Shown in pieces: positions 20,501 to 62,209 of a stretch of DNA of 64,000 nucleotides (its first letter is position 1; every line of letters starts with the position of its first letter). The notes beneath the pieces are model-generated. The model was not told the origin of the DNA. It saw only the letters and a program-made list of their open reading frames with translations, and did no database searches. The DNA lies in assembly GCA_040954595.2 (NCBI GenBank), contig CM082581.2, positions 10,353,099-10,417,098 of the forward strand, written 5' to 3'. Origin of the DNA: Balanoglossus misakiensis (taxonomy: Eukaryota > Animalia > Hemichordata). A program made the position numbers and the translations under genes.

Positions 20501-20735
20501 GCACATTGAAACAACTGTATGTATTTTGGTTTTCCACGACTAATTGAATGCAAAATGTACAAGACTTGAACAATTTTTGTCACTTTTGTGTCAAACTCAA
20601 AAATCATTTACGTGCTAAAAATCTCTGTGCAAACATGCAATGTTTCCTCATTGTATAATTGTATAATTATAATATTCCTCAAATACGAACTTGGGTTCAA
20701 CAAACACGACAGTGATGATCTCGCACAAGTGTGAC

Positions 20736-20834
20736 TGGCCAATCGGGACCAAGTGTAATACAGTAGTTGATCCAGTAAAGCGCCCTCAGTCGCTCGCCGT
20801 GGCGGGAGTTTTCAATTTGTGACCAAAATGGCGT
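20736..20834 (+). promoter_or_regulatory. HAUS8 proximal promoter: CCAAT box, E2F-like GGCGGGA, YY1-like start context
   Basis: ggccaatc at ~20737, GGCGGGAG at 20801-20808, and caaaATGGCG around the start codon. This combination is typical of cell-cycle gene promoters (inference). Confidence 0.45.
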
Positions 20835-23800
20835 CGAAGAGGTCACTGTACAAGCCTGCTCCGGTGGAAAATGTCGGTGAAAGGCAGGCCAGGTAAGTAT
20901 TATAAGAAATACAAAGGATGTCAGTTAATGATAAAGATGCGGTTAGACACATGCGATGAAATTACCGCCAAAAGCTCGTCAAAACGAAACTTTGTTGAAA
21001 AGTTTTCAAATGTTGACGTGCTTTCTGGGTTCGTGTTTTGACATGTGTCACTCCGTGTGCATTGCAGTTCACCAACTTACAACAGCAGAGCTTGTTAATT
21101 TCTTTTCAAAACATCAATATTTAAATTCTCTCCTTGTTCTTAATACCTTCAAGGAACAGGATTTTTATTGCTGCCAGGTTATTAAAAACAAAATGACTTC
21201 TGTATACAGTGCCTTCCTGTAAGGTTGTGTTGCTATGCATATAATGCAGGGTCATATACATGTACACAATGTACAATAATACATGTATGCCATTGAGGAT
21301 ATTTGGGTGACATTTCAGTTTACATGCATGATCAGATGATGTAGTATAACTTCCCCAGATAACATATGTATAGACTACATCACTTAATAAGCACCATCTT
21401 TTTAAAATAACACTAACACTATACTGCAATACATTGCCAGTGAAGATATAACATGTTTACTTATTTACACGTTTTCAATAGGAGACCACTGTCGCAAGGG
21501 AAACTGACCACCAAGCCAACCTTACCTGACACACTCACTGTGTATGCATCACCTACATTTCTTGCACGATCTGCCTCAAATGGAGGTATGTGCCATATGG
21601 GGACATTCACTTGTTTCCACATATTTACCAAAACAGTAGATATTGAGAATACCACACTAGTTGGTTTGGCAGGGTTATCCAGAATTTACTGCGGAAGTGA
21701 GTATTGCTAGTATTGAAAAAACTGACCTTGTATACTATGTACAAATAATTTTTATTTATACCATTACTGTAGCAGGGGATGTAAATGTGACGATATCTCA
21801 TGGTCCAGTTGATGAGCTGTCTTTCTCGCCAAGACAAAGTCTGGGTGGACGGAGCAAAGCCAGAGCTGGATGGTCAGAAGACCCAGCAGCAAGTCCACGT
21901 TCCAAGTAAGTATACAGAAAACTAAGACCAAAATGCCAAATTTGATGGCTTTTCCCAGTACCCTATAATTTCATACATTTTGTACATTTAATGGATTTCC
22001 TGGGCAGAATTTGAAAACCACAATTGTGATAAGTATACACGTACATGTCTTACAGAATACCTGCCACAAGTTATATAGATCCAACATGTGTAGACGATAT
22101 GATACGATCCCCATCACGACCACAACCAGAGAAAGCCCTAGAGTTATCAGATTCTGATGAGGAAATGACTCTGAGGAGACGGGTGCGTATTCAGAGAGTT
22201 AACCCTTTCACCACCATTGTTCAGTCCAAACCCATTGTTTTATGAACTATAAGGTGGCTTCCGCAAATAATGCAAAATGTTCCACCTCTTTCCTTACCCA
22301 AACGTTGCACGTCGTTGTCAATGTCATACTTGCATCTAAATCATGGATTGATTTTGTTCTGACCACACAGTCCCCAGTGAAACATGTGAGCTACGACAGC
22401 CCAGCGTCAGTGCAGCTCATAGATGCCAGTGGCGGAAGGAGAGACTTAAACACATCAGAGGTTCAAATCAAGACGGACATGATTGAGAGTCCAGCTAAAG
22501 TGGTCTGTCATTCACTAGCTGTTGTGGAAAGTGATCTTAGGTATAATGCTATTCTCCATTAGAAATGGTGTGAGTTGTATTGCAACCACAGCAGCTGATA
22601 ATATACAAGCACCTCTGTTAATGTTTCTGTGCGCATGGATATACTGTAGTATGTGCCGGTAGATTTCAGTAATGTATGAGTGTAATAATACCAGCTTTAA
22701 AAGAACTTACCTAGCCTTATGTCTGATTACCAAAAGCACATTGAAGAATTTTTATCATTGTCTCTTCTCTGTCTCCACACAGAAATACCGGCTACACTCA
22801 GCAAAGTGCCAAGGTCAAGATGGACACACCGCAGTCTTTCAGTCTCCTTGGTGACGAGGATTTCACGGAAGCGACGCAGAAGGAGGTCAGGAAAGAGAAA
22901 CCTGCACTGGTTGTCAGAGAAAAAGGTGTTTCAGGTACAGTCGGTCTGCCAACTTTTGGCTGCGAATCCGTGCGAGTTTTCTTCAGTAGCATGCGAGTCG
23001 AGCACAAGCCAGTCAGTGCTTTTGCCCAAGTAATTATTGACGTGTAACATTCTCCGTTCATATGGATAACACTGCAGCTCTCACACTAATTACTGTCCAT
23101 CTTTCGTTCGTCAAGTTGCAAAAGCTGACACCAGCAGAAAACCTGTCCTAAGAGAAACCAACAGCCAGGCACTAACAATGGAAGGAATATCACAGTTACC
23201 AGACGACCTCTTGGATGATCTGCTCAGCAATAAAGATGAAAATGTACCAGAGTCTGCTAATTCAACGTTATCAAGGTAAAAACTGGAGCCTGTATGTCTG
23301 ATTTGCATTTGTGTGTTGTTAAGTGAATGAATTTCATTTCTAAGACATTTAATTGTGATAATGATTACTAGGTAGTCCAAGTTTTATCTAATTAGAGATG
23401 TAATTGCACTGATTACATGCTAAATTTGATTTTGGTAGATTTGAGTTTTTCTGAAAATATGGCCTTGAGCTGGCCTCCATTTACATCATTACATTCTCAA
23501 TATCTGCCAGTTATTGATTTTTTGAGCGATGTCCCTTTCATTCATGGTTTCAATGTTTGTAGTATCAGAGACAATACTGGGGATAGCAAAGAGGTGGTTA
23601 AGAAGAAGAAAAAGTCTAAAGGTGAGTGGAATTTCTGGTTGTATTTGCAAAAGTCTTCTTTTCCTTCAAAAGACTGAAACCTCAATGTCAGGACAAATTA
23701 AATAAAACCCCAGGTTTACAGATGCTTAATGTGGGTTATTTATCAAATCGAATAATCAGTATTTCAATTTCCTCTCAGGACGAGTGGTGCAATCACGGTA

Positions 23801-27275: not shown

Positions 27276-27616
27276 TACTTTGTTTTGTGACCAGTAATGT
27301 ATTTACGGTATGATGTGTGTGATATTAAGTTTTTAAAGTTGACGTGATAATGATATGAAGTGTGCGACCGATTATGGGGAAATGCCCTTGTTTAACTTTT
27401 TCAAAATGTATACAAATACAGATTGAGCCAAAAGTAAGAGCTGGTGGACATTTGAAAACAAGTCAGAACTGCAGCATAAAAATGGATTACATATCAGTAA
27501 AACTTAATATCTGTATTTGTTCGTAGAATGGAATTGTAGAAAATGTTGATATGAAATGGATGTGAATTCAGTGTTTTAGAGTCATAAATGTCTGCTTATT
27601 ACATACTGATAGGCAT

Positions 27617-27720
27617 GTGTTCATCATGTGATGACATCATGAAGGTTTGTGTTCATCATTTGATGACATCATGAAAGTTTGTGTTCATGTGCTGACATCA
27701 TGAAAGATTTAGTTCACATG
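27617..27720. repeat. ~32-bp minisatellite, ~3 copies
   Basis: gtgttcatcat(g/t)tgatgacatcatgaa(g/a)gttt repeated, third copy degenerate; lies between the converging HAUS8 and NHLRC2 3' ends. Confidence 0.85.
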
Positions 27721-31900: not shown

Positions 31901-34488
31901 CACACCACTCCTTGAGGAGAATGGAACCTGGCCTCTTCAAAACTGCCATCGTTGAATCCACTGCTGCAACCGCCAATGCATTCTTTGACCACTCCTCCCA
32001 TGGACGTGATGAGGATCCGATGGTGCCCGCTGTCAGAAATCACCAGGTTCTCCCCGGACGAATCCAGGCTGATCTTGCCGGGGAAGGACAACGGCGTGGG
32101 AGGGAGGGAATCCTTGATGGGCGCGATCGGAATACTGTGGTTGCTCAGCATGCCCTTGGCCTTGTAGCAGTCCACGGCTATCCTGATGAAGTCCATCAAC
32201 TTCTCCCGGTTGCCCTCTCCGGCGATCGTCAGCAGGACGTCTCCTTCGGGGCTGAGGACCACGAACGTCGGCCAACACTGGATCTGCAGAGTCTGCCAGA
32301 GCGCCGCATCGTGGTCGTTGACAACAGCGTGGGAGATATCGTATCTCAAGACGGCGGACAGAATGTTGGCTGACAGCTTCTCGTTGGGGAACTTGGCCGA
32401 GTGTACTCCGATGACAACCACACCATCTTCAATGCTGTACTGCTCCTCGATGGCTTCCAGATCAGGTAGGACATGCATGCAGTTGATACAACAGTACGTG
32501 AAGAAATCCAAGATGACGATTTTGCCACGGAGTTCATTGTGTAGTGATAAGGGCTGTGTTGTGTTCAACCATTCTAAACCTGAAAGTGGAAAACAACTAT
32601 TGTCAAGAAATTACTTCTATTTTGCTGAAACTTGTCTGTACCTGTCACCTGTTTCCAACCTACGTATGCATTGGCCTAAAAGGTCATTTGCCTCATAATT
32701 CATTCACAACCAAGCAAGCAGGTAAACTGTTGCAATCGCTTTCTTTGTGTTGCCGTATTGTGCCATCACGAAGAGTTGTCTTTGGACATTGCGCATCAAT
32801 TGAAACTCAGTGTGCCGTGAACATATGGGAGATCAGAATTCAACGGGACAAAAAGCAACAACGATCAAAGGTCTCTGCCCAGCCATATTTTTGTCAGTCA
32901 GATGTCAAAAGTTACTCTTCAACTAAGATTCTATGAAGCAACACAGAAGCAAGTGATGAAATACACATGTATATTTTTCTCACCACTAACTACTGTCCTT
33001 TTCAATGTGGAGCTTTCAGAAAGAATAAACCCCAGAACTTGTTGTGTTGTTACATGTTCATGTACTTTATATTTATGACACGACCTTGAACACATTGTTT
33101 TTACAACACTTTATCTAAATGCCGGATGCAATCCTGTCAATTCAGTGGCAGACTCTGAACTGTTGATTACCATAATACACAGACCTGAACAGAGTAGACA
33201 GATGGGTATATGCACGCCTAGCTCACGCCACATATTTTTTACTGATAAGCACATAATGAGCTTGTCATTTGTTCACATACCATCTTTAAACTGATCCAGT
33301 GAGCTAACTAACACACCTGACTAAATTTGAAAGCAAATATAAAAGAGCTTTCCAGGGAATATGCATATTATATATTCATGTCATGAGCATGCATCAATGA
33401 CTGACGTAATGTCTTGTACTACATGAGAAAAATGCATTGTTGTATTTTTTATATATATTTTATTTTTAATAGACTGGCGTTCCTTTGATCAATTTCAGTC
33501 TTTAACAAATATGATGGTGACATTGGAACTTCTATTAGCACAGGTGGCAGATTACTGGCCATTCCACCTTGAAAAAATTAGTTTCCCTTTTTTATCACTT
33601 AACCCACTGTAGTTGACATAATTTAATTATTTCAATGGATAAACATTATGGTGCCCTGGGGGAAATGATAGCAATTGCAATTGTATAGACCATGGTAAAC
33701 AATCCATGCTGAATTGCTATGGTTACCTTTCCTGGGACATCAATGTCAACATGAACAATGATGATGAATCAAAATAGCACTTGCATTCTTTGAATGATAA
33801 TGTATAAACAAAATACTAAAATGTTGACTTTCGTTAAAACTGTGGGAAATAAGTTCTATTTATGTTACTTGCGTCAATTTTCTGATAGTTATGATAAGAG
33901 GAACCAGCGTTGTATTTATGATAATGTACACAACCGGGAGTGTCATTTCCCAAGGGTCGATCGTTGCCAACATCTAATCGCGGATCTGAGCAATACCTAC
34001 AATATGACCATATAAGGACATGCCGAACACAACCACAGCGATACATCATATCGCCCTTCTGCTACATTGTTCAGCTGTGGCTTCGAAGAATGGTAGAATT
34101 TAGCTCAGAAAATACACATTAAAAACTCGATTTCACCTAAATTGGAGACACGTACTGAATTTTCATTACAACTAGTAAATCTCGCTTCGTGACGCCGCAA
34201 CTGTCGTGCGATCTGTTGCGTTCAGCTTGCGATGTTGACATTTCGGAATTTCAAACTCAGCGCTGTAGCGCGTAGCACAGTACAAACTCCGGCGTACTGA
34301 GAGAAACATTTTACAAACAACATACCTTGCTTGAAATCAGGCACGAATACTTTATCTTGGCTGTTGGCTATCTTGTCGATGTACTCATATATAACGGCAT
34401 CGCGTTGTTCCTGCGTCGTGGCGTCGATTAAACTAGCTTCCAGTTTGTTTCCCGCTGATATTACTTTCGACGTATCCACCGTCGCCAT
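28922..34488 (-). CDS. NHLRC2: NHL repeat-containing protein 2 (thioredoxin-like + NHL beta-propeller), 8 exons, ~731 aa
   Basis: Exons 34488-34326 (MATVDTSK...PDFKQ), 32579-31849 (GLEWLN...[25 protein letters not shown]...[13 protein letters not shown]), 31613-31387, 30617-30386 ([26 protein letters not shown]), 30239-30117 ([10 protein letters not shown]...KLQHPL), 29948-29739, 29556-29337, 29211-28922. The YCCINC motif and NHL repeats are characteristic of NHLRC2. Confidence 0.96.
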
Positions 34489-35379
34489 TTTCGCCGTTTG
34501 TTTGTGCGTGGTTTCGCAACACCACAACAACTCAAGTTTGGGGCGTAACACCGGTAGCATATTGCGTGCGGGTGACCTGATAGGGACAGGTCACGCTCGC
34601 TAAGTCAAAATAACTGTATCTTCTGTCGCTTCTTATCTGCTTGAAGATTAGCGGAAAACCAGCAAGAGTGCAAGGAAAAGCCTATCACCTCCCGGATGAT
34701 AGGCAAACAAGTGAAACTACCCACTCCGACGGTCTGTCTGTGAAAGTGCGCGCGCGCCCCATGATCTTGTCATGCATGTTGTGCAGAATATAAAGTAGCG
34801 CATTGTGCGTGCAGTATGATTTAGACACGATTATCACAGTTTATAACGTACGCTTAAGTAAAACACGGGAAAGATTCCTTTACTTCCTGTCATTTTCAAG
34901 TAAAAGGTGTGGAAAAAACTTCTTCAGCGTAAACTTCTTGTGATAACAAGTTTGATAAGTTCCTGAAAACTTAGTTCACTAGTCCAGCCAGAATGCCTTT
35001 TAATTGCATTCAGGTTAAGCGCAACGTTTAAAAGATGATGTAAAAAAATCTCAGAGCATCCCAAGTATGTACATTTAGAGAAAAAGAGATACCCTTTGAA
35101 ATAGACTGTCACCCAGTCACCAGTGTCTATCCGTGTAATGTGGTCACGTTGAATGATTATCTTTGAAGTAAAGTTGCCCTATACATGATATGCCGCGCGC
35201 GGCCCAATTCTAGTGCAAACCGTTTTTTATTCACCAGAGTTTTCTTTTTTTCCCGATATTTAGAGATTGATAGAACATCTAGTATTTGTCCTTTAAATTC
35301 GTGAAATGAAATGAAACTCCATGAAATGGTGTGCGCCATCTACCGGTGGCATTCGCGTCACTGACGTAAATCTCACCTG

Positions 35380-35554
35380 GGGCGCATTCGATTTGCACGA
35401 TCATGATTGTGATTGGCCAATCGTGATCGTGATTACGCGTTCGAATACGCCCAATCATAATCATGATTGACAATCACAACAATCATGCCTCCGAGCGTGA
35501 TTGTTGTGATTAAACACACAAAAATGGCGGACGACGCAGCAGCCGGTACCGCCC
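35380..35554. mobile_element. candidate internally deleted PIF/Harbinger-like element with palindromic left end
   Basis: Begins GGGCGCATTCGA and ends CGCCC, flanked by CTG on both sides (35377-35379, 35555-35557), consistent with a 3-bp CWG TSD. It has an internal inverted repeat (GGGCGCATTCGA / TTCGAATACGCCC ending 35452) and repeated ATCATGAT/GATTGTGATT motifs. The terminal match is only 5 bp. Confidence 0.45.
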
Positions 35555-38500
35555 CTGATTCCATGTCATTAGTATCTCACTATGTCATGTGCGAATCTAT
35601 CTGGCAATGTACGCGCTTGGTGTCTATACTGGTGAAAAATTTGTTTTATTAATTTAGTCTGTTAGAGATGATTTTATTTAGACTGGAATTAAATTTACTA
35701 GTATCTCGGATTAGTACATTGGCAAATCCCACAGTCCTTTGCGCAAATCAAAATGGCGGCGCCCAATGTAAAAGTTTCTAACATTCCAACACTTGGTGGC
35801 GACATTTACGATTCCAACTGGTTCATGTCGTTAGTATCTCACTATGTCATGTGCGAATCTATCTGGCAATGTACGCGCTTGGTGTCTATACTGGTGAAAA
35901 ATTTGTTTTATTAATTTAGTCTGTTAGAGATGATTTTATTTAGACTGGAATTAAATTTACTAGTATCTCGGATTAGTACATTGGCAAATCCCACAGTCCT
36001 TTGCGCAAATCAAAATGGCGGCGCCCAATGTAAAAGTTTCTAACATTCCAACACTTGGTGGCGACATTTACGATTCCAACTGGTTCATGTCGTTAGTATC
36101 TCACTATGTCATGTGCGAATCTATCTGGCAATGTACGCGCTTGGTGTCTATACTGGTGAAAAATTTGTTTTATTAATTTAGTCTGTTAGAGATGATTTTA
36201 TTTAGACTGGAATTAAATTTACTAGTATCTCGGATTTGTACATTGGCAAATCCCACAGTCCTTTGCGCAAATCAAAATGGCGGCGCCCAATGTAAAAGTT
36301 TCTAACATTCCAACACTTGGTGGCGACATTTACGATTCCAACTGGTTCATGTCGTTAGTATCTCACTATGTCATGTGCGAATCTATCTGGCAATGTACGC
36401 GCTTGGTGTCTATACTGGTGAAAAATTTGTTTTATTAATTTAGTCTGTTAGAGATGATTTTATTTAGACTGGAATTAAATTTACTAGTATCTCGGATTAA
36501 TACATTGGCAAATCCCACAGTCCTTTGCGCAAATCAAAATGGCGGCGCCTGTATATGTACGTCCTCGCCTCGCATAAAGTTAAAAAAGTGTCCGTTTAAC
36601 AAGTTGTGAGACGTTTTGTGGCGATTCTTTGTCCCGTATGAATGAATTGTGAATGATAACGGCGATCGGTGCACGAATTTTGGTCCACAGATGGAAATTT
36701 CTTGTCGAAACCACTGCGTTATAAATATCACTCGCGCACTGCATTGGATGACGTCACGAAAGTTTCTAACATTCTAACCCTTGGTGGCGACATTTACGAT
36801 TCCAACTGGTTCATGTCGTTAGTATCTCACTATGTCATGTGCGAATCTATCTGGCAATGTACGCGCTTGGTGTCTATACTGGTGAAAAATTTGTTTTATT
36901 AATTTAGTCTGTTAGAGATGATTTTATTTAGACTGGAATTAAATTTACTAGTATCTCGGATTAGTACATTGGCAAATCCCACAGTCCTTTGCGCAAATCA
37001 AAATGGCGGCGCCCAATGTAAAAGTTTCTAACATTCCAACACTTGGTGGCGACATTTACGATTCCAACTGGTTCATGTCGTTAGTATCTCACTATGTCAT
37101 GTGCGAATCTATCTGGCAATGTACGCGCTTGGTGTCTATACTGGTGAAAAATTTGTTTTATTAATTTAGTCTGTTAGAGATGATTTTATTTAGACTGGAA
37201 TTAAATTTACTAGTATCTCGGATTAGTACATTGGCAAATCCCACAGTCCTTTGCGCAAATCAAAATGGCGGCGCCCAATGTAAAAGTTTCTAACATTCCA
37301 ACACTTGGTGGCGACATTTACGATTCCAACTGGTTCATGTCGTTAGTATCTCACTATGTCATGTGCGAATCTATCTGGCAATGTACGCGCTTGGTGTCTA
37401 TACTGGTGAAAAATTTGTTTTATTAATTTAGTCTGTTAGAGATGATTTTATTTAGACTGGAATTAAATTTACTAGTATCTCGGATTAATACATTGGCAAA
37501 TCCCACAGTCCTTTGCGCAAATCAAAATGGCGGCGCCTGTATATGTACGTCCTCGCCTCGCATAAAGTTAAAAAAGTGTCCGTTTAACAAGTTGTGAGAC
37601 GTTTTGTGGCGATTCTTTGTCCCGTATGAATGAATTGTGAATGATAACGGCGATCGGTGCACGAATTTTGGTCCACAGATGGAAATTTCTTGTCGAAACC
37701 ACTGCGTTATAAATATCACTCGCGCACTGCATTGGATGACGTCACGAAAGTTTCTAACATTCTAACCCTTGGTGGCGACATTTACGATTCCAACTGGTTC
37801 ATGTCGTTAGTATCTCACTATGTCATGTGCGAATCTATCTGGCAATGTACGCGCTTGGTGTCTATACTGGTGAAAAATTTGTTTTATTAATTTAGTCTGT
37901 TAGAGATGATTTTATTTAGACTGGAATTAAATTTACTAGTATCTCGGATTAGTACATTGGCAAATCCCACAGTCCTTTGCGCAAATCAAAATGGCGGCGC
38001 CCAATGTAAAAGTTTCTAACATTCCAACACTTGGTGGCGACATTTACGATTCCAACTGGTTCATGTCGTTAGTATCTCACTATGTCATGTGCGAATCTAT
38101 CTGGCAATGTACGCGCTTGGTGTCTATACTGGTGAAAAATTTGTTTTATTAATTTAGTCTGTTAGAGATGATTTTATTTAGACTGGAATTAAATTTACTA
38201 GTATCTCGGATTAGTACATTGGCAAATCCCACAGTCCTTTGCGCAAATCAAAATGGCGGCGCCCAATGTAAAAGTTTCTAACATTCCAACACTTGGTGGC
38301 GACATTTACGATTCCAACTGGTTCATGTCGTTAGTATCTCACTATGTCATGTGCGAATCTATCTGGCAATGTACGCGCTTGGTGTCTATACTGGTGAAAA
38401 ATTTGTTTTATTAATTTAGTCTGTTAGAGATGATTTTATTTAGACTGGAATTAAATTTACTAGTATCTCGGATTAATACATTGGCAAATCCCACAGTCCT

Positions 38501-41500
38501 TTGCGCAAATCAAAATGGCGGCGCCTGTATATGTACGTCCTCGCCTCGCATAAAGTTAAAAAAGTGTCCGTTTAACAAGTTGTGAGACGTTTTGTGGCGA
38601 TTCTTTGTCCCGTATGAATGAATTGTGAATGATAACGGCGATCGGTGCACGAATTTTGGTCCACAGATGGAAATTTCTTGTCGAAACCACTGCGTTATAA
38701 ATATCACTCGCGCACTGCATTGGATGACGTCACGAAAGTTTCTAACATTCTAACCCTTGGTGGCGACATTTACGATTCCAACTGGTTCATGTCGTTAGTA
38801 TCTCACTATGTCATGTGCGAATCTATCTGGCAATGTACGCGCTTGGTGTCTATACTGGTGAAAAATTTGTTTTATTAATTTAGTCTGTTAGAGATGATTT
38901 TATTTAGACTGGAATTAAATTTACTAGTATCTCGGATTAGTACATTGGCAAATCCCACAGTCCTTTGCGCAAATCAAAATGGCGGCGCCCAATGTAAAAG
39001 TTTCTAACATTCCAACACTTGGTGGCGACATTTACGATTCCAACTGGTTCATGTCGTTAGTATCTCACTATGTCATGTGCGAATCTATCTGGCAATGTAC
39101 GCGCTTGGTGTCTATACTGGTGAAAAATTTGTTTTATTAATTTAGTCTGTTAGAGATGATTTTATTTAGACTGGAATTAAATTTACTAGTATCTCGGATT
39201 AGTACATTGGCAAATCCCACAGTCCTTTGCGCAAATCAAAATGGCGGCGCCCAATGTAAAAGTTTCTAACATTCCAACACTTGGTGGCGACATTTACGAT
39301 TCCAACTGGTTCATGTCGTTAGTATCTCACTATGTCATGTGCGAATCTATCTGGCAATGTACGCGCTTGGTGTCTATACTGGTGAAAAATTTGTTTTATT
39401 AATTTAGTCTGTTAGAGATGATTTTATTTAGACTGGAATTAAATTTACTAGTATCTCGGATTAATACATTGGCAAATCCCACAGTCCTTTGCGCAAATCA
39501 AAATGGCGGCGCCTGTATATGTACGTCCTCGCCTCGCATAAAGTTAAAAAAGTGTCCGTTTAACAAGTTGTGAGACGTTTTGTGGCGATTCTTTGTCCCG
39601 TATGAATGAATTGTGAATGATAACGGCGATCGGTGCACGAATTTTGGTCCACAGATGGAAATTTCTTGTCGAAACCACTGCGTTATAAATATCACTCGCG
39701 CACTGCATTGGATGACGTCACGAAAGTTTCTAACATTCTAACCCTTGGTGGCGACATTTACGATTCCAACTGGTTCATGTCGTTAGTATCTCACTATGTC
39801 ATGTGCGAATCTATCTGGCAATGTACGCGCTTGGTGTCTATACTGGTGAAAAATTTGTTTTATTAATTTAGTCTGTTAGAGATGATTTTATTTAGACTGG
39901 AATTAAATTTACTAGTATCTCGGATTAGTACATTGGCAAATCCCACAGTCCTTTGCGCAAATCAAAATGGCGGCGCCCAATGTAAAAGTTTCTAACATTC
40001 CAACACTTGGTGGCGACATTTACGATTCCAACTGGTTCATGTCGTTAGTATCTCACTATGTCATGTGCGAATCTATCTGGCAATGTACGCGCTTGGTGTC
40101 TATACTGGTGAAAAATTTGTTTTATTAATTTAGTCTGTTAGAGATGATTTTATTTAGACTGGAATTAAATTTACTAGTATCTCGGATTAGTACATTGGCA
40201 AATCCCACAGTCCTTTGCGCAAATCAAAATGGCGGCGCCCAATGTAAAAGTTTCTAACATTCCAACACTTGGTGGCGACATTTACGATTCCAACTGGTTC
40301 ATGTCGTTAGTATCTCACTATGTCATGTGCGAATCTATCTGGCAATGTACGCGCTTGGTGTCTATACTGGTGAAAAATTTGTTTTATTAATTTAGTCTGT
40401 TAGAGATGATTTTATTTAGACTGGAATTAAATTTACTAGTATCTCGGATTAATACATTGGCAAATCCCACAGTCCTTTGCGCAAATCAAAATGGCGGCGC
40501 CTGTATATGTACGTCCTCGCCTCGCATAAAGTTAAAAAAGTGTCCGTTTAACAAGTTGTGAGACGTTTTGTGGCGATTCTTTGTCCCGTATGAATGAATT
40601 GTGAATGATAACGGCGATCGGTGCACGAATTTTGGTCCACAGATGGAAATTTCTTGTCGAAACCACTGCGTTATAAATATCACTCGCGCACTGCATTGGA
40701 TGACGTCACGAAAGTTTCTAACATTCTAACCCTTGGTGGCGACATTTACGATTCCAACTGGTTCATGTCGTTAGTATCTCACTATGTCATGTGCGAATCT
40801 ATCTGGCAATGTACGCGCTTGGTGTCTATACTGGTGAAAAATTTGTTTTATTAATTTAGTCTGTTAGAGATGATTTTATTTAGACTGGAATTAAATTTAC
40901 TAGTATCTCGGATTAGTACATTGGCAAATCCCACAGTCCTTTGCGCAAATCAAAATGGCGGCGCCCAATGTAAAAGTTTCTAACATTCCAACACTTGGTG
41001 GCGACATTTACGATTCCAACTGGTTCATGTCGTTAGTATCTCACTATGTCATGTGCGAATCTATCTGGCAATGTACGCGCTTGGTGTCTATACTGGTGAA
41101 AAATTTGTTTTATTAATTTAGTCTGTTAGAGATGATTTTATTTAGACTGGAATTAAATTTACTAGTATCTCGGATTAGTACATTGGCAAATCCCACAGTC
41201 CTTTGCGCAAATCAAAATGGCGGCGCCCAATGTAAAAGTTTCTAACATTCCAACACTTGGTGGCGACATTTACGATTCCAACTGGTTCATGTCGTTAGTA
41301 TCTCACTATGTCATGTGCGAATCTATCTGGCAATGTACGCGCTTGGTGTCTATACTGGTGAAAAATTTGTTTTATTAATTTAGTCTGTTAGAGATGATTT
41401 TATTTAGACTGGAATTAAATTTACTAGTATCTCGGATTAATACATTGGCAAATCCCACAGTCCTTTGCGCAAATCAAAATGGCGGCGCCTGTATATGTAC

Positions 41501-42765
41501 GTCCTCGCCTCGCATAAAGTTAAAAAAGTGTCCGTTTAACAAGTTGTGAGACGTTTTGTGGCGATTCTTTGTCCCGTATGAATGAATTGTGAATGATAAC
41601 GGCGATCGGTGCACGAATTTTGGTCCACAGATGGAAATTTCTTGTCGAAACCACTGCGTTATAAATATCACTCGCGCACTGCATTGGATGACGTCACGAA
41701 AGTTTCTAACATTCTAACCCTTGGTGGCGACATTTACGATTCCAACTGGTTCATGTCGTTAGTATCTCACTATGTCATGTGCGAATCTATCTGGCAATGT
41801 ACGCGCTTGGTGTCTATACTGGTGAAAAATTTGTTTTATTAATTTAGTCTGTTAGAGATGATTTTATTTAGACTGGAATTAAATTTACTAGTATCTCGGA
41901 TTAGTACATTGGCAAATCCCACAGTCCTTTGCGCAAATCAAAATGGCGGCGCCCAATGTAAAAGTTTCTAACATTCCAACACTTGGTGGCGACATTTACG
42001 ATTCCAACTGGTTCATGTCGTTAGTATCTCACTATGTCATGTGCGAATCTATCTGGCAATGTACGCGCTTGGTGTCTATACTGGTGAAAAATTTGTTTTA
42101 TTAATTTAGTCTGTTAGAGATGATTTTATTTAGACTGGAATTAAATTTACTAGTATCTCGGATTAGTACATTGGCAAATCCCACAGTCCTTTGCGCAAAT
42201 CAAAATGGCGGCGCCCAATGTAAAAGTTTCTAACATTCCAACACTTGGTGGCGACATTTACGATTCCAACTGGTTCATGTCGTTAGTATCTCACTATGTC
42301 ATGTGCGAATCTATCTGGCAATGTACGCGCTTGGTGTCTATACTGGTGAAAAATTTGTTTTATTAATTTAGTCTGTTAGAGATGATTTTATTTAGACTGG
42401 AATTAAATTTACTAGTATCTCGGATTAATACATTGGCAAATCCCACAGCCCTTTGCGCAAATCAAAATGGCGGCGCCTGTATATGTACGTCCTCGCCTCG
42501 CATAAAGTTAAAAAAGTGTCCGTTTAACAAGTTGTGAGACGTTTTGTGGCGATTCTTTGTCCCGTATGAATGAATTGTGAATGATAACGGCGATCGGTGC
42601 ACGAATTTTGGTCCACAGATGGAAATTTCTTGTCGAAACCACTGCGTTATAAATATCACTCGCGCACTGCATTGGATGACGTCACGAAAGTTTCTAACAT
42701 TCTAACGCTTGGTGGCGACATTTACAATTCCAAAACAGACCTGATTCCATGACGTAAATCTCACC
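35555..42765. repeat. higher-order tandem array: 22 x 262-bp monomers organised as 988-bp units (3 monomers + ~202 bp extra segment, 7 copies of the segment)
   Basis: The ATGGCGGCGCC landmark recurs at 35753, 36015, 36277, 36539 | 37003, 37265, 37527 | ... | 41943, 42205, 42467 (steps of 262, 262, 464). Identical ORFs recur every 988 bp in the ORF track. Copies are almost invariant. Confidence 0.98.
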
Positions 42766-42777
42766 TGACCTAAGTGA

Positions 42778-42787
42778 TCACATGACT
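42778..42787 (-). promoter_or_regulatory. M-box/CLEAR-like MiT/TFE site 23 bp upstream of the V-ATPase B start codon
   Basis: TCACATGACT (reverse complement AGTCATGTGA). V-ATPase subunit genes are established MITF/TFEB targets. A second GTCACATGAC lies at 49251-49260, just after the stop codon. Confidence 0.6.
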
Positions 42788-42809
42788 TATCTCAATTACT
42801 CGCAGCAAG

Positions 42810-49216
<6,407 letters not shown>

Positions 49217-51431: not shown

Positions 51432-53219
51432 TCAGCCGAAATGTAAATTACTAAGTTCTTCGTTGCTCGGAGCACGTAAATATCTGATAGATTTGATATT
51501 TTCTAAATCTTCATAAGTAACATTAGAAGTGGCGGGCCTGGTGAAGTCTCGCCTGGTAGGTTTGTGCGTCGTTTGGGCGTAGATCGGCGGTAACTGAGTT
51601 GGAGAACTGTGTTCTTCAACTTTTGCCGCGGTCGGACTTTGAAGATCTAGAGCTTGAATGAAGAAGTGTGCTGGTCCGAGACTTTTCTTTCGTGTGGCAC
51701 TGGTGTGTTTCTTGTGCATCGGTACTTTCGCCCGTTTCTCGGCCGTGTTTTCCACAACGATTCTCGGATTGCCTGTCGACGTAGCCCAGGAGTGCGATCG
51801 GATTCGTGACGTCGACGACGACGCGTCTGAGTCGAGCGATACCTCCGAGCCACACCTCCGTTCGATTTTCGGTGATGACGAGGGGGTGTGTCGCGGTGTG
51901 CTGGTCTGAAGTTCGAGAGATCTCTCGAGAGAGCCCGACCTGCTCAGATTTAGAGATGCCGTTGACACGGCAGGCGATAACGTGGACGGTGTCAGCGATG
52001 GTGGGGTAACTGTTGAAATGCTCCTCCTGATGGGTTGAGTTGATTCTGGGATGCTGTTCAGGACTTCCAAAGAGCGAGATCTCAGACGATGCTGCGCATT
52101 CAAGTGTGGGAACGCCTCTAATGATGATAAAGTCAGAGTCTCGTTGGGGAGTCTTTGTTGAGATTCTTGCAGGATTTTCCGGCGGTGCATTGGACTGGGC
52201 GTTAATTGTCTCCGTGGACTCCCCGACACCGACGGGGGTGTCACCTTCCTCGACAACATCGGTGACGCTGACTCATCGCTCGTATCGAGGTATAAGGGCG
52301 ATACCGTCGTTCCATAACGACGTTGCCTTGGCGACTCCGATCCGTCCGGAGCCTTCAACGGAGGCTCGCTGTCAGATCTTGGCCGAGGCGAAGGTGATGG
52401 CGACCGAGACTCACTCGACCTGTCACGAGGTATGGCCAAGAATGACAAGGGTGATGGAGACGGAGAACGGGACGAGGTCGGGGATGATCCGTTTTCTCCG
52501 TGACCAGGTACCGTTAAAGAAGTACTTCTAACAGGAGGACTATCTGATTTTAATCCCGCAACTCGCCTGATGTCTAAAGATGGGTTCAGAGACTTCATCT
52601 TGCGAACGTCTCGTCGGGAGAGTCTTGGTGAATTTGGCAACGAATGTGAAGTAGGCCTAGGCCTAGACATTGTGCTGGCTACCTCTTTGTCAAGTCCGGA
52701 GTCTTCGAGCGACTTTCTCAGTCGATCGATATAGTTGATAGTCGGATCTGTTTGTTTTTCATCGCCTGCTCTCTGCTCGCTTTCGTCCGAATGTTTGCGT
52801 TTCGTTGACACCTGTTGATTGAGAACGATGTCACTGCTACCGCCGGTCTGTCGACTCGAGTCAGCCGGACCATTTGCCAGATCAATCTGTGGACCGTTTT
52901 CTTGCGAACGTTTCCTCAAATTGATCGCGATGTGTCGTGCGACACTATAACTGAGGCCGGAGTTCTTCGAAGTGTTTCCGTCGATACTGGATACACTCGA
53001 CGAGCGATCTCCTGAACCAGGCGGATTGAAGTCCCGAGCGCTTTCCCTTTCCAGGCGCTCTAATCTGTCCAACATTTTTTGCTCCTCCTTTTTGTGAACT
53101 CTCTTCCATTTCAAATGTTCGTTTTCAATATGAGAACAGACTTTTTCGGCGTGTCTCTTCACCAGAACATTGGTCTTCAGTATCGTTTCTTTACTGGCCT
53201 TGCTCACCTCATCCGCCAT
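51432..53219 (-). CDS. uncharacterised 595-aa S/R/P-rich protein, N-terminal coiled coil and C-terminal LPPI...RYLR motif (possibly CCDC190-like); cluster gene A
   Basis: 1788-bp uninterrupted ORF with start context aacATGGCG. A splice acceptor (ttttcag) lies 16 nt upstream of the ATG and a GTAAGT donor at 53485-53480, suggesting a non-coding first exon. Confidence 0.8.
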   Translation of the reverse strand: MADEVSKASKETILKTNVLVKRHAEKVCSHIENEHLKWKRVHKKEEQKMLDRLERLERESARDFNPPGSGDRSSSVSSIDGNTSKNSGLSYSVARHIAINLRKRSQENGPQIDLANGPADSSRQTGGSSDIVLNQQVSTKRKHSDESEQRAGDEKQTDPTINYIDRLRKSLEDSGLDKEVASTMSRPRPTSHSLPNSPRLSRRDVRKMKSLNPSLDIRRVAGLKSDSPPVRSTSLTVPGHGENGSSPTSSRSPSPSPLSFLAIPRDRSSESRSPSPSPRPRSDSEPPLKAPDGSESPRQRRYGTTVSPLYLDTSDESASPMLSRKVTPPSVSGSPRRQLTPSPMHRRKILQESQQRLPNETLTLSSLEAFPHLNAQHRLRSRSLEVLNSIPESTQPIRRSISTVTPPSLTPSTLSPAVSTASLNLSRSGSLERSLELQTSTPRHTPSSSPKIERRCGSEVSLDSDASSSTSRIRSHSWATSTGNPRIVVENTAEKRAKVPMHKKHTSATRKKSLGPAHFFIQALDLQSPTAAKVEEHSSPTQLPPIYAQTTHKPTRRDFTRPATSNVTYEDLENIKSIRYLRAPSNEELSNLHFG

Positions 53220-53939
53220 GTTGTCATCCAGGCCGCTGAAAATGCCGCAATTATTCGTACTTTCGGCGATGGAAGTGCTCTCGGGGCCGTTTCCACAAAC
53301 GCAGACTCTTCTCGCGTAGCTCTGTTCACTGGTTACCGCGGTATACCCTGGACCTTTTATATCGCTTCGCTGTTAATCATTAAGTCACCAACTAAGGGCG
53401 CGTCACACTGTGGGGTCGGATCTCCGGTGAGAACATCGATTATGCAAATACTAAACATGACATGGGCACAAAACACATGACTTACAGAGATTCTCGCATG
53501 CTCTGTTAATTTATCAACTTTCGCGACAATCTCTAAATTGATTTTAAAAAAGGAAAATAATACTTCATATTGGCCATTCGATCTAACAATAGGAATCCGA
53601 GAAATTATCCAGTATGTCCAATTTTAGCCTTTTAATTGTTAAACACAAACGGCCTAAAGTGAACTGCGGACGTCATCGGTCACAGATCCGGCCAGTTTCT
53701 ATTTGTAATCAATATCCAGTGCTTTGAGCGCCAAAGAAACCTTATCCTCGCCTTCCTGAACGATTATATTAAATATCTGCCGATTCATCTCATGATCGAT
53801 CACTCCGACAGGACAGGAAGTGGTTTATTTTGACTACGAATCCAAAGTTTTGGTGAGGTCACTGGCCTGTCGATATGTGATTAAAATAAGTGGGTTATGC
53901 TGAGACCGTGACTGTACTTCATGGGGAGGACAACGGTTG

Positions 53940-54030
53940 TATATTATATTATATTATAAAATTACATCATATTATATTATGCATGTATTATGTTACATCG
54001 TATTACATGTATATTTCAGATTACGTATTT
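53940..54030. repeat. degenerate (ATATT)n AT-rich simple repeat
   Basis: atattatattatattataaaattacatcatattatattatgcatgtattatgttac... Confidence 0.7.
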
Positions 54031-56276
54031 AATGATAGAAACAGAAAATTAGTTATTTCACTGTAATAATAACGATTGTACGAAAGCGATGTATAGTATT
54101 TTCAAAACCGTTTGTTTGTCTTTACGGTGTGAGCTTCAATGTCAAAGATGTAAAATCAATTCGGACGATTTGCGGTCTTTTGACATCTTGGGTCGAAAAT
54201 TACACCCCGTCACGGAGTCACCCGCATGTTGTTGTTTTTGATCACATGTCTACAAGCCAATGACGTCACTACCAAGCCATACCCTTTGTAGGTGGCGGTA
54301 ATGATCGATCGATGGCGGTGACCACTTTACAAAATATACCGAGGCATGAATAGTTAATGCTCAACTTGATGATGGATAATTGGTTACCTGAGTGGTCTGT
54401 ATCCGTTACACATTATGGCGTTAGCATCCAGGTTCCTGACGATATCTTTCAGTGATTATTGTCCACGTGGAATCGGAAAAAGAATACCGCAAATATCAAA
54501 TGTCACAGACTCAAAAAACTGTGCGTTCACAATGTTAACACCTTAGGAAGCGTGAGAATCAGAAATCTGTTTCTTCCAGTTTTGCCATATACCCCCACCC
54601 ACCTCTGTTTTCACGTGTTCACCAATTTGCTACAGAAAATTATAAAGAAAGAGGACAATTTCACAAATGAAAGAAAAATCAGGCAACTTCAAGACAGAAA
54701 CGGAGAAACAAGCTTGTTGAAGAGAAAGTTTGACCCGCACGAATCTGGGATAGTGCCAGTGACCCCACACTGGACAACTACCGATCGGGCAAATGCCTTA
54801 AACCCCTGTCATATCGACAACTTGAATACTCTCTGCCTACTTGATACATGAAAACTCAAATAACCGTGCAGAGTGCGTCAGATTAAAACTACTTCTATTC
54901 GACTCGGAAAGATTTGTAACAGATGCGTAGGTTGGCTTTGTCGCTCACGATCAACCATGACATTTTAAGCTGACGTGGGTTACATCATTTACACGCGTCG
55001 TCCTGGCAACCGAATGGAAAATCAACAGGTGGTTGCTATGCCAATGAACCCCAAAATAGTGCTTTTGATGTCGTTCGTGTAAACGACGACAAATATTTTG
55101 TATGATCTGAAGCTTGATCTCAATAAACTGCCAAGCAGAAACAAAAGTAAACGTCATTTTGTAAAATCGACAAACATTATTGGAACAATTAAAAGTCATT
55201 AGTATATGCCTATACATATGTGGATCGTTTAGGACTTGTAACGCTTCACTCTGGGGTGAGTTATGACATCATATTTTTAAAAATATGAGTAGTTAAATAA
55301 ACCCAGTAGTTTTAAAGTGGTTTCCCTAGTAAAGTGCAAATAATCCACGGCCATTTAATAAAAATTGGTGACGCTACTGTAGCCTTTGCACGTCAATTTT
55401 TTATGGCATAATTGAGTCGAACACGTTGGAAACTCTGGTATGTTGCATTCGAAACAAAGAAATACAGACGTTATATAAAACACCGAGCGATAATTATACG
55501 AAAGTAAACTCCCGATATTTTCAAAACACAAGGTTTGATTTACGCGATATTCTGTCACTTGTTAGTGTGCGCCTGTGTATTTTTTATTCAAGTAGAGCTT
55601 CGTAATTTTGGGATAAGATTATTGTTTTACTGCATCTGCGATGAATGGTTGCAATCGCAAAGAGATTGTTAATGGCTGGACTTTACTGCGTCAAAGAGAG
55701 GGCGCTGTTAAGTTTGCAACCGAAGAAGATATATTACGTGGTATATGGTCAAAAATAAAATAATGTGACGCAATATACAACCAAACCTCACTGTAATAGT
55801 CACGGGTCGGTTTATTATTTTATTCTTTATTTAGCATGTTCATGTTGCCAAGATTTTGTTTGAAGCGCAATCTATGATTATAAGTTTCGCACCCAAACTT
55901 ACTCATACTAGTATATTTCTCATACCTCCGCGTCTAAAATCGTCCTTCATCTCCCCCACACCAAAGCAGCGCGGCGTGGGGTCGTGCTTCCACATAAATT
56001 GAGGAGATTACACTCCTGTCGTTTTTGTGTCAAGTTTGAACGATTTGTGACGAAAATCGATCAGAAAGACCTGTTTATGTTGGCGAATGTTTTCGCTTCT
56101 CAGTTGCGTTGTGTCAAAGTTTCGACATATCGGGACGAAGAAAGCTTGCAAACTATTTAAAGATGGTTCTATAGAAATACACACAAATATCCACCGAATT
56201 TTCCAACTGTACACAAAGTGACCAACCAGGGGTTAAGCAATTCACGTAGAATCATTATTTCATGGCGAGGGTCTGC

Positions 56277-57695
56277 TCACCTAGCTAACTTTCCTAACGG
56301 GCGACTTCGAGTGAAGCGCTTGTTCGCGTCCACCTCGCAAGGCATTTGGCGGTTGTTACCATGTAAAGGAGCCTGATAATACGAGGGTACGTCAAAGTTC
56401 GTTTGTGAAGTGGTCTCGTCGAGCGATAGCGATTTCCCGTCGATGTTCTCTCTCCCGGTCTTCGTTGCTTCAGATGCAGCCGTTGGCATGGAAACTGGTT
56501 GGGGAGAATCTACACTGACGGTTCTTGCCTCAGACGTGAAACTGGCGCTTCTTGGTCTGTGGTGGCGGCGTGGTGACCTGGGGGACGGGGAGAGAGATTC
56601 TTGCAGACCGTCTTGGTTTTCAATCCCCGGTGCTTTCCGAGGCAGCCTGGGTGAGGGTGTCGACGGAGGGCGCGGGGAGTGTCGCAGAGTCAAGCCATCG
56701 TCTTCACCTTTCGGCGGCTGTGGCATTGGAGATAACGAGCGACCACGTCTTCGTACAGTTTTTCTCTCAGTACACCTCTGTCTTTCATCTTGATTATTCT
56801 CTCTCGGCGAAAGTCGACTCGTCGGTTCAGAAGTGTGTTTGTCTTTGCTCATTTTATGAAATTCCCATCGTTCGTATTCACGATTTTTTGCGGCGTGCTT
56901 GTTTTCTGCTTCTACGTTGTCAGTTGGTCCATCCCCGCCACCATTACACCAACTCGAATTTTCTAGCGTTTCATCAACAGGTTTTTGTTTTTGTCCTGTC
57001 GGTACTGTAACGGCAACTAGACTTTTGGCTTGACCGGATTCACTATCACGTCTCTTCAAATGATAATTCGGCGCTGACTTTGGCCGGTCAGTGATTGACG
57101 GGAGAGGGACCGATTTCCTTCTGTCGCCCAATATATCTGTTCTTTGAATGCGAGGCAAAGCAAACTGTTCGCGGATAGGCGAACATGACGGCGATGTTGG
57201 TCGGGGCGTGCTTTTCCTGGTAGCAGACGCACGTTCAGTCAGGCCCAAGCAGCTTCGGTTTCCATCTTCGTCGATAATATTGATCATGGGAACGGGACTT
57301 GCAGTCTGTTTGCCGGCACTTCTCGGCGAAATATCGGGCGACGGCGATTTCATAGCGAGTCTTGGCGACTCCTGGTTTTTCTCTCGCGGAGATTCACTAC
57401 ACTCCCGGGACTTGGTCCGTCTCTGTTTCAATAAAGCACTCTGCTCACCTGTGGTACGTGTAGCCCTCTGCGGCGACTTCGCACCGTCACGAACCGCCGT
57501 CCTCGAGCCGTGCAAGTTCAATTTCACCAACTCCTTCGTCAGCTCTTCCTTGTAATGGTCATAATCGACACAGTTCTTCAGCTGATCGTTCTCTAGACCC
57601 ATACCGCCCGTATCCTCTCGTCGTTTGGCAGATCCGTTGTTAGCTGGCATGGTGTCTTGAGATCGCCCGTGAGAAGCAATGCCACCGCCGTCCAT
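56277..57695 (-). CDS. uncharacterised ~472-aa disordered S/R/P-rich protein; cluster gene B (3' end may be spliced)
   Basis: Long ORF. The ORF track starts at GTG 57731, but the first ATG is at 57695 (MDGGG). Acceptor ttctttcag ends at 57748. The TGA stop lies inside AG|GTGAGC, a possible donor site. Confidence 0.72.
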   Translation of the reverse strand: MDGGGIASHGRSQDTMPANNGSAKRREDTGGMGLENDQLKNCVDYDHYKEELTKELVKLNLHGSRTAVRDGAKSPQRATRTTGEQSALLKQRRTKSRECSESPREKNQESPRLAMKSPSPDISPRSAGKQTASPVPMINIIDEDGNRSCLGLTERASATRKSTPRPTSPSCSPIREQFALPRIQRTDILGDRRKSVPLPSITDRPKSAPNYHLKRRDSESGQAKSLVAVTVPTGQKQKPVDETLENSSWCNGGGDGPTDNVEAENKHAAKNREYERWEFHKMSKDKHTSEPTSRLSPRENNQDERQRCTERKTVRRRGRSLSPMPQPPKGEDDGLTLRHSPRPPSTPSPRLPRKAPGIENQDGLQESLSPSPRSPRRHHRPRSASFTSEARTVSVDSPQPVSMPTAASEATKTGRENIDGKSLSLDETTSQTNFDVPSYYQAPLHGNNRQMPCEVDANKRFTRSRPLGKLAR

Positions 57696-58858
57696 ATTTA
57701 CCGACTTTCCGGCAGCCGGTGTACTACGCACTTAGCTCAGACACAAACTGAAAGAAGTTTATTGGCAATAAGCCGCGCTAATAGCTCTGAATAAGTCGCA
57801 AACAAAAAGATCTATAGCATCCACACGTTATAGTTTCCGTTCTTTTTTCCCCCAAACATCAATTATTCACGCACGTCGATTGTTCTCGTCATTTCATAAA
57901 ACACGTATTAGATCACGTGACAATTGATTTTCATGTCGCAGTATTTTCGTCCTGGTAATGAAAGCGATAAATTCAAGTCTTTATTAAAGTGTATAATAAT
58001 ATGTACCACGTGATAACTAATGGCAATAACCATAGTGTGACGCAAGAAAAGGCAAGCCGAGGTCTCGTCTGGAAAAACGGAAGCTTTTTTTGTCTGGCAC
58101 GGAAATACTAGTATTCCAAGTATATACACAGCATCGATTTACATGATGAACTATTTTGCTTGAATGTACTCGTCCTAGTTACATATATTTTTATTTCCCC
58201 CGGTGTATATCCTAGACATCTTATTAATCAAATTTACATGGGGTAAGGCATTATCTGGACATTTTTTTTCTACATTAGAGAATTGAAAACTGTAAAACTA
58301 AAAAAAAGGAACGATTCGTTTTATAATATGTAGGCCTATGCCTAACATCAATAATGCAAATAAAACTACCCACATTAGTGCGAAATGTATAAACTATTCA
58401 GATGTTTCCTTAGGCCAGGGTGTCGCACAAAACCGTTACAGGAAGCGCGCAGTGCACTGTGGACTATGTACTTTGTCGACAACAGCAACCAGAGAATCAA
58501 TATAAGTATACCACTCAAAGTTTATTGCAAATTAATAATACATTCATTCAATATATTCTGAAATTAACTGCCACATTTTAAAGTTTGCAGAAGTTTGCAG
58601 AAGTAATTAAAACATTCGAGAATTAAATAAAACTCATCATATTCATCATCCATTAACATTGGCAACCACTTGGCATTTTAAAAATCATGACAATTGGTAA
58701 ATTTTAGATGATGCGTTTTGTCGTCTGACGTTGTGCATGTTTATGACTGTAGCACGGTTTCCTTTGGTTTTACAGACATATTTTTATCGAGTACAAGCCA
58801 CAGTTTGTGTGATTTTGATATCGAATTAGGAATGGCAAGAAAATGAAAAGAAGAGTTA

Positions 58859-62046: not shown

Positions 62047-62060
62047 GTATCCATGGAAAC
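62047..62060. promoter_or_regulatory. RFX X-box
   Basis: GTATCCATGGAAAC matches the X-box consensus GTNNCC-AT-GGNAAC. It lies between the 3' end of gene D and the start of gene C. Confidence 0.6.
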
Positions 62061-62209
62061 ACGAACCGCAGCTTGTGGCCTAAATGATTCAACAGCTAAA
62101 CTACTTGGTTTATTACCGAGTACTTGTTTTAAAATTAATGGCGACACCACATTAAATTCGACCCGTTTTGTCGATTGTCGCCGTGACCGAACCTTTGGCT
62201 GGTAAACTT

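What the first reader, a model, noticed from the sequence alone, without database searches (positions are those of the whole stretch)
35555..42765. A 7.2-kb higher-order satellite apparently built from promoter DNA, inside the divergent NHLRC2 / V-ATPase B promoter
Seen: the array ends ~45 bp before the ATP6V1B ATG and starts ~1.07 kb from the NHLRC2 ATG, separating two head-to-head housekeeping genes. Each 262-bp monomer carries a canonical YY1 motif (CAAAATGGCGGC), just upstream a Staf/ZNF143-like site (ATCCCACAGTCCTTTGCG; a single T>C in the last copy), and an M-box core (GTCATGTGC). Complete monomers also carry a CTCF-like stretch (ACACTTGGTGGCG, or CCCTTGGTGGCG after each extra segment). 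Each of the 7 extra segments adds TATAAAT, an inverted CCAAT and a full CRE (TGACGTCA, first at 36749-36756). Established: YY1 and ZNF143 are enriched at bidirectional promoters, and MITF/TFEB drive V-ATPase genes through M-box/CLEAR sites. Inference: this is a tandemly amplified promoter module (22 YY1/ZNF143/M-box sets) that could act as a copy-number dial for V-ATPase B and NHLRC2 expression, a factor sink or a looping hub, rather than an inert satellite.
Basis: partly seen in the sequence, partly recalled or inferred. Interest (0 to 1): 0.85.

Follow-up and report, generated by a model that had tools for sequence, protein, structure and literature searches.

The report
Young repeat array splits shared promoter
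A 7.4-kb block of nearly identical repeats, flanked by an exact 18-base duplication, sits between two head-to-head housekeeping genes; it is likely a recent insertion of a repeat family also found elsewhere in this animal's genome rather than amplified local promoter DNA, both genes are still spliced into RNA, and any effect on their output is untested.

Summary
The array is in the assembly as described: 22 cores, 7 x 988-bp units, motifs at the stated places. Its origin reads differently. An exact 18-bp direct repeat (35362-35379; 42750-42767) brackets a 7,370-bp block; without it the start codons would lie 933 bp apart. Contigs of three runs of one sample show flank-level depth outside the repeats, far higher depth inside, many 82-95% alike relatives and other junction types: the unit belongs to a dispersed family. 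It shows no homology to the native promoter beyond chance. The 464-bp unit is likely ancestral, the 262-mer a deletion derivative. The YY1 match exceeds chance; TATA, CCAAT and CTCF do not; a perfect M-box and YY1 cores lie outside the insert. Both genes appear spliced in one run. Depth suggests about three times more units than assembled, so size is uncertain; no contig bridges the junctions. Best reading: a recent repair-type insertion that then expanded, tolerated as a passenger. A copy-number dial stays possible, untested. The scan's notes hold no look-alike.

The parts
34326..34488 (-). NHLRC2 first coding exon; start codon inside an AAAATGGCG (YY1-core/Kozak) context
   Evidence: ORF; spliced contig in run X3 joins it to 32561-32577; next exon matches NHLRC2
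34489..35361 (.). Native intergenic DNA, single-copy depth; CCAAT at 35204, CTCF-like match 35334-35346 (pattern recalled)
   Evidence: one contig, 0 differences, depth 46.5 in X1
35362..35379 (+). Left copy of exact 18-bp direct repeat (candidate target-site duplication)
   Evidence: longest shared word in 2000 shuffles 11, observed 18
35380..35553 (.). 174-bp hairpin-rich piece, repeated elsewhere and continuing differently there; 3 CCAAT and one YY1 core
   Evidence: fold z -6.8; contig depths 42-296 in X1, loose ends at 35417, 35551, 35552
35554..35565 (+). 12-bp word that opens the array and recurs at its end (42740-42751); elsewhere it is the head-to-tail join of a longer ~473-bp unit
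   Evidence: X1/X2 loose end at 42755; X2 records 13, 14 depth 1112-1168
35554..42751 (+). Higher-order array: 15 short (262-bp) and 7 long (464-bp type) units, 22 shared cores
35569..35830 (+). Example short unit: long unit with 209 bp replaced by a 7-bp filler (likely deletion derivative)
   Evidence: tables 5 and 5c; junction print
36355..36818 (+). Example long unit with YY1, Staf-like, M-box-like and CRE motifs; likely ancestral form
   Evidence: an 85%-alike relative runs through core into the extra segment, 42459-42646 (X1 record 4)
42283..42751 (+). Terminal long unit with its own alleles (42449, 42707, 42726) and the longer join
42750..42767 (+). Right copy of the 18-bp direct repeat
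   Evidence: X1 flank contig ends at 42750
42778..42785 (-). Native perfect M-box TCATGTGA, outside the insert
   Evidence: motif from PMC6355916
42810..42921 (+). V-ATPase B first coding exon; start codon inside AAGATGGCG (YY1 core)
   Evidence: X3 contig 42784-42921 spliced to 45304

Best explanation
A 7,370-bp block between two exact 18-bp repeats is likely a recent insertion of DNA from a dispersed repeat family into a compact shared promoter, likely expanded afterwards by unequal exchange or recopying into a near-identical higher-order array, and likely tolerated as a passenger because each gene keeps its own start-proximal motifs. Steps: (1, inferred) a break 43-60 bp upstream of the V-ATPase B start codon was repaired by copying in repeat DNA (a 174-bp piece plus a ~473-bp unit), duplicating 18 bp; (2, inferred) a 209-bp deletion with a 7-bp filler gave the 262-bp unit, here or in a donor array; (3, shown as structure, inferred as process) the triplet short-short-long was multiplied seven times with almost no divergence; (4, shown at contig level) both genes are still spliced in this sample; (5, inferred) V-ATPase B runs on the surviving M-box and YY1/start motif, possibly helped by the last unit's CRE and CCAAT.
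For: Exact 18-bp flanking repeat, chance maximum 11; 933 bp ATG to ATG without the block, within the <1 kb definition of bidirectional promoters (PMC3082894). X1 depth 46.5-46.8 outside the repeats, hundreds to thousands inside. 63 of 80 X1 contigs and 51 of 76 X2 contigs laid on the last unit plus right flank are under 95% alike; unit heads occur behind other unique flanks (loose ends at 35569, 35572, 35580); a longer head-to-tail join absent from inside this array has depth about 1100-1170 against 125-168 for flanks in X2. No homology to native flanks. No terminal or subterminal inverted repeat over 7 matches and no poly-A for the block. First and last part-units are in phase and together make one long unit, the pattern predicted for circle reintegration, and flanking duplications with microhomology are described for Rsp-like insertions (PMC7403614). 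YY1 and CRE cores reappear in loose-end consensus of diverged relatives, so they belong to the family. Native M-box and YY1 cores outside the insert; spliced contigs of both genes in X3.
Against: No empty allele was seen; all reads come from one sample, possibly the source of the assembly. No listed contig bridges either junction by 31 letters on both sides (left contigs reach 23-24 bp into the insert; 152 and 32 pieces were not shown). X1 depths give about 66:46:24 copies per flank against 22:15:7 assembled, so the array may be collapsed, longer on the other haplotype, or present elsewhere; a collapsed, locus-born array is not excluded for the short unit. The internal long-unit allele at 42707 is not listed in any contig. 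'Passenger' has no direct test, and which allele the RNA came from is unknown. The left piece alone has 5-bp inverted ends between CTG triplets, which hints at a separate transposition step.
Confidence: 0.6

Rival explanations
1. The array, whatever its origin, now acts as a copy-number-dependent activator or replacement upstream promoter for V-ATPase B (and perhaps NHLRC2) through 22 YY1 and Staf-like sites and 7 CREs.
For: Strict YY1 beyond chance; CRE, tighter Staf and M-box-like matches at 28-109 of 5000 shuffles; CpG o/e 1.26. The block displaces the native upstream region 7.4 kb from V-ATPase B, yet the gene is spliced. Precedent: SbMATE MITE repeats and TaALMT1 promoter repeats (review PMC6480313, passages).
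Against: Motifs belong to a family with many copies elsewhere; a better M-box and YY1 cores survive outside the insert; near-zero divergence points to a very young array; no binding, chromatin or expression data.
Confidence: 0.15
2. The block is one non-autonomous transposon carrying central tandem repeats (HINE/Helentron-like or tandem-repeat MITE) that jumped here as a unit.
For: Such elements carry satellite-like arrays in oyster (PMC7492417); earlier notes report many Helentron-type nests in this genome (unchecked); one other copy of the unit head follows a T-run.
Against: No subTIR pair, no TT flanks, and an 18-bp duplication, whereas HINEs make none (PMC4067079); the left piece continues differently elsewhere, so the two parts are not a fixed pair.
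Confidence: 0.12
3. The array's size or placement is an assembly error: a collapsed longer array, or repeat reads joined between the two genes.
For: About three times more units by depth than assembled; units nearly identical; no bridging contig listed.
Against: The short-unit join and its 7-bp filler exist in contigs of X1 and X3, and core:join:extra depths are about 3:2:1 as in the assembled triplet; left contigs of X1 and X2 run into the insert without a difference; the 18-bp duplication is a biological signature. Mis-sizing is compatible with the best explanation; only a false placement is a true rival.
Confidence: 0.08
4. The array arose by tandem amplification of this locus's own promoter DNA.
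For: Promoter-type motifs; a loose visual likeness between the unit head and the right flank.
Against: That likeness is chance-level (695 of 1000; 167 and 509 of 2000); diverged relatives lie elsewhere.
Confidence: 0.05

Closest known systems
Rsp-like euchromatic satellite insertions of Drosophila simulans (Sproul et al. 2020, PMC7403614; passages read)
   Same: Young array at a new euchromatic site, flanking duplication (32 bp there, 18 bp here), microhomology at joins, higher-order units, first and last part-units in phase as proposed for circle reintegration
   Different: Those insert into existing 1.688 arrays; this one lies in a bidirectional promoter, has a 464/262-bp unit and promoter-type motifs; circles were not tested here
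Tribolium Cast satellites in gene-rich regions (bioRxiv 10.1101/2023.04.24.538079; passages)
   Same: Satellite arrays spreading into gene-rich DNA, proposed via transposons or eccDNA; regulatory effect speculative
   Different: Far higher abundance; no case of a split bidirectional promoter in the passages read
SbMATE MITE-repeat and TaALMT1 promoter repeats (review PMC6480313; passages)
   Same: Tandem repeats upstream of a gene carrying factor-binding sites; model for a copy-number dial
   Different: There binding and expression-copy correlation are shown; here neither is, and the genes are housekeeping
Cg_HINE / DINE-1 non-autonomous Helentrons (PMC7492417 results part 1 of 2; PMC4067079 passages)
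   Same: Dispersed family with central tandem repeats of 100-500 bp
   Different: No subTIRs, no T flanks, and a target duplication is present
KolobokP solo LTDRs and multimers (PMC9587614; results parts 1-2 of 3)
   Same: Unit length near 450-480 bp; multimer formation by unequal crossover
   Different: No 11-18 bp terminal inverted repeats found, no internal coding region, duplication 18 bp rather than 3-5 bp
YY1-bound macrosatellites DXZ4 and D4Z4 (PMC3287207, PMC3002039; search listing and abstract starts only)
   Same: Tandem array with a YY1 site per unit
   Different: 3-kb units, old mammalian loci with shown binding; not inside a bidirectional promoter

Membership tests
Higher-order tandem (satellite-like) array | Head-to-tail units whose multi-unit period is more alike than the monomers | tested here: met
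   988-bp period with fixed 15:7 variant pattern
Dispersed euchromatic satellite insertion (Rsp-like type) | Family members at other loci | tested here: met
   diverged contigs, other flanks and other joins, (contig level, one sample)
Dispersed euchromatic satellite insertion (Rsp-like type) | Flanking duplication or microhomology at the joins | tested here: met
   18-bp exact repeat
Dispersed euchromatic satellite insertion (Rsp-like type) | Empty orthologous or allelic site | tested here: inconclusive
   none seen; X1 right contig ends at the first base of the repeat but the left contig shows no branch
Dispersed euchromatic satellite insertion (Rsp-like type) | Presence on extrachromosomal circles | not testable with these tools
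   needs circle-seq or 2D gels
HINE / non-autonomous Helentron | 12-15 bp subterminal inverted repeats | tested here: not met
   best terminal inverted match 5-7 for three boundary choices of block or array
HINE / non-autonomous Helentron | T-rich site, no target duplication | tested here: not met
   flanks CCTG / TGAC with an 18-bp duplication; definition
KolobokP LTDR | 11-18 bp terminal inverted repeats, 3-5 bp duplication | tested here: not met
   at the boundaries tried; true unit ends in other copies unknown
Non-LTR retrotransposon insertion | Long duplication plus poly-A or simple-repeat tail (recalled) | tested here: not met
   duplication present, no tail at either end
PIF/Harbinger-type MITE (left 175-bp piece only) | Terminal inverted repeats and 3-bp duplication (recalled) | tested here: inconclusive
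   5-bp inverted ends between CTG triplets, but other copies continue past the right end
Bidirectional promoter | Head-to-head starts under 1 kb apart (PMC3082894) | tested here: not met
   8,321 bp ATG to ATG now; 933 bp without the block; true start sites unknown
Promoter copy-number dial (SbMATE type) | Factor binding and expression that follows copy number | not testable with these tools
   one sample, contigs only

The most novel reading that the evidence does not exclude
A dispersed repeat that carries a ready-made promoter module (YY1, Staf-like, CRE) split an essential bidirectional promoter, replaced the upstream region of V-ATPase B, and its fast-changing copy number now sets V-ATPase B and NHLRC2 output among wild individuals.
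Probability: 0.15. Interest if true: 0.6.

Novelty: new member of a known kind. Interest (0 to 1): 0.3.

Why it matters
If the insertion reading holds, the locus is a clean, very young case of satellite birth: target duplication, ancestral unit, deletion derivative and higher-order unit are all still readable, and it shows that a housekeeping bidirectional promoter can be pulled 7 kb apart with both genes still spliced. That makes a simple natural test of how much upstream DNA such promoters need. If the array also tuned expression it would be an animal counterpart of plant promoter-repeat dials at an essential proton pump. As it stands, each element has precedent and the function is unshown.

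Tried and rejected
No whole genome is held, so the unit could not be mapped genome-wide. Homology of the unit to the native flanks, to the left piece, and of core to extra segment: all chance-level. I first read X1 record 8 as an empty allele; one search showed record coordinates run in the record's own direction, so the contig merely ends at 42750; rejected as proof. Rfam on 35200-36900: 3 weak hits, E 0.22-0.32, all below gathering scores. Metagenome scan with a 20-bp unit word: 5 of 5 loci match only 20-24 bp and are GC-rich (0.54-0.62), taken as chance. Other copies in the window: only a 24-bp 87% match at 27657. No RNA holder was listed; run X3 is labelled 'DNA?' and I infer RNA from its two spliced joins; its array pieces (depth 2-4) may be transcripts or DNA carry-over and are not used as evidence. 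X2 contigs break at GATC and are likely proximity-ligation data, so their breaks were not interpreted. Literature: no paper on this locus in a search for NHLRC2 + ATP6V1B + promoter (1 unrelated hit); searches for satellite arrays in bidirectional promoters, Helentron higher-order arrays and hemichordate repeats gave no direct precedent in the listings; subscription journals and supplements were not seen. The Harbinger search was seen as a listing only. Earlier-note look-ups by place, sequence and words gave no look-alike.

Full report
Observation. The window holds the array as described. Tandem Repeats Finder reports seven blocks of period 262. Splitting at a fixed anchor gives 22 units: 15 of 262 bp and 7 long ones (six of 464 bp and a terminal one), in the order short-short-short-long, then six times short-short-long. 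Only 4 of 198 core columns and 2 of 256 extra-segment columns vary, so the array is very young or freshly homogenised. The flanking genes are NHLRC2 and V-ATPase subunit B. The organism is an intron-rich animal with gene-body CpG depletion; an earlier unchecked note calls it a likely acorn worm, which I did not test.

An exact 18-bp word occurs twice in the window, at 35362 and 42750; shuffles give at most 11 shared letters (2000 trials). Between the copies lie 7,370 bp: a 174-bp hairpin-rich piece (z -6.8) and the array. Without the block and one repeat copy the start codons would be 933 bp apart instead of 8,321, the size range of bidirectional promoters (PMC3082894, passages). The array begins and ends with the same 12-bp word (35554, 42740), which is not found at its 21 inner joins.

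Reads. One search listed 3 runs of one sample and one study, possibly the source of the assembly, so they are not independent of it. All are contigs; the tool warns that depth is no copy number, and I use it only roughly. Right side: flank depth 46.8 (X1) and 125.4 (X2); core contig 3060 in X1, short-unit join 2125, extra segment 1094. That is about 66:46:24 per flank against 22:15:7 assembled: the 3:2:1 proportion agrees with the triplet, the amount is three times higher. Of 80 X1 contigs laid, 63 are under 95% alike; of 76 in X2, 51. One 85%-alike relative runs from the YY1 motif through the extra segment, and the short unit appears as a 209-bp skip with a 7-bp filler, so the long unit is likely ancestral. 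Loose ends show a longer head-to-tail join through the 12-bp word, with depth about 1100-1170 in X2, and diverged relatives that keep YY1-like and CRE-like cores in different surroundings. Left side: one contig without differences up to 35403 at depth 46.5; higher depth from 35374 on; the 174-bp piece continues differently elsewhere; the unit head occurs behind other unique flanks. Against my reading: no empty allele was seen, no listed contig bridges either junction by 31 letters each side (152 and 32 pieces not shown), and the allele that the six inner long units carry at the position of 42707 is not listed in any contig. X3 has contigs spliced in both genes (42921 to 45304; 34324 to 32577), so it is likely RNA and both genes are expressed in this sample, from an unknown allele.

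Origin. Alignments of the unit to the right flank (695 of 1000 shuffles as good; anchored 167 of 2000), to the left flank (34 and 153 of 300) and to the left piece (254 of 300) are chance-level. The array is therefore not an amplified copy of this promoter. The block has no terminal or subterminal inverted repeat beyond 7 matches, no T flanks and no poly-A, so it fails the HINE (PMC4067079; PMC7492417) and KolobokP (PMC9587614) tests at the boundaries tried. The nearest described process is the repair-mediated spread of Rsp-like satellites in Drosophila, with flanking duplications, microhomology and in-phase part-units at the ends (PMC7403614, passages); similar spread into gene-rich DNA is reported in Tribolium. 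The family itself may be transposon-derived; I could not classify it.

Motifs and function. In one long unit the strict YY1 12-mer is beyond chance (0 of 5000 shuffles, 0 of 120 window tiles); CRE (61), a tighter Staf pattern (28) and GTCATGTG (109) are modestly so, with patterns chosen after the fact and partly recalled; TATA, CCAAT and the published loose Staf rule (CCCR plus C at 12) are not, and my CTCF pattern misses the unit but hits the native left flank. Against the published SBS1 probe (PMC3627581) the site agrees at 10 of 18 positions by my count. The published M-box TCATGTGA (PMC6355916) occurs exactly at 42778-42785, outside the insert, and both start codons sit in YY1 cores. CpG o/e is 1.26 in the array, 1.06 in the native promoter and 0.44-0.48 in the gene bodies, so there is no sign of past methylation. 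The simplest account is that each gene runs on its own proximal elements and the array is a tolerated passenger (0.6). A dial as at SbMATE (review PMC6480313) is possible (0.15) but nothing here tests it.

Verdict. A real, well-described structure with a different origin from the one proposed: likely a recent insertion and expansion of a dispersed repeat family in a shared promoter. New member of a known kind; interest 0.3, rising to about 0.6 if copy number proves to set expression.

Noticed in passing
window 35521-35553 and 36536-36576: In both the left piece and the long unit the YY1 core doubles as an ATG in start-codon context, opening short frames (12 aa in the unit; loose ends of relatives suggest a similar short frame and, for the left piece, a splice-donor-like word). 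Both may derive from promoters or first exons of multi-copy elements.
   Followed up: partly
window 20730-20900: A third start-like site with CCAAT, AAAATGGCG and a splice donor; likely the first exon of another gene. All three apparent gene starts checked have a YY1 core over the ATG.
   Followed up: no
window 35374-35380: Several other copies of the left piece share the 6 bases before it (contig begins at 35374), suggesting a target preference or that these bases belong to the element.
   Followed up: partly
window 42940: X1 and X2 contigs both read T where the window has C: a heterozygous site or an assembly error; otherwise the flanks laid show no differences.
   Followed up: no
window 27611-27720: Short 29-32 bp tandem repeat with a 24-bp 87% likeness to the CRE end of the extra segment, inside the NHLRC2 region.
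   Followed up: partly
window 51432-63817: Four long single-exon-like frames on the minus strand (646, 484, 712, 535 aa) rich in Ser/Pro/Arg with similar C-terminal wording; possibly a tandem gene family.
   Followed up: no
window 42459-42742 (X1 record 4): A 1,198-bp contig holds two parts of the unit on opposite strands, hinting at a foldback-type relative.
   Followed up: no
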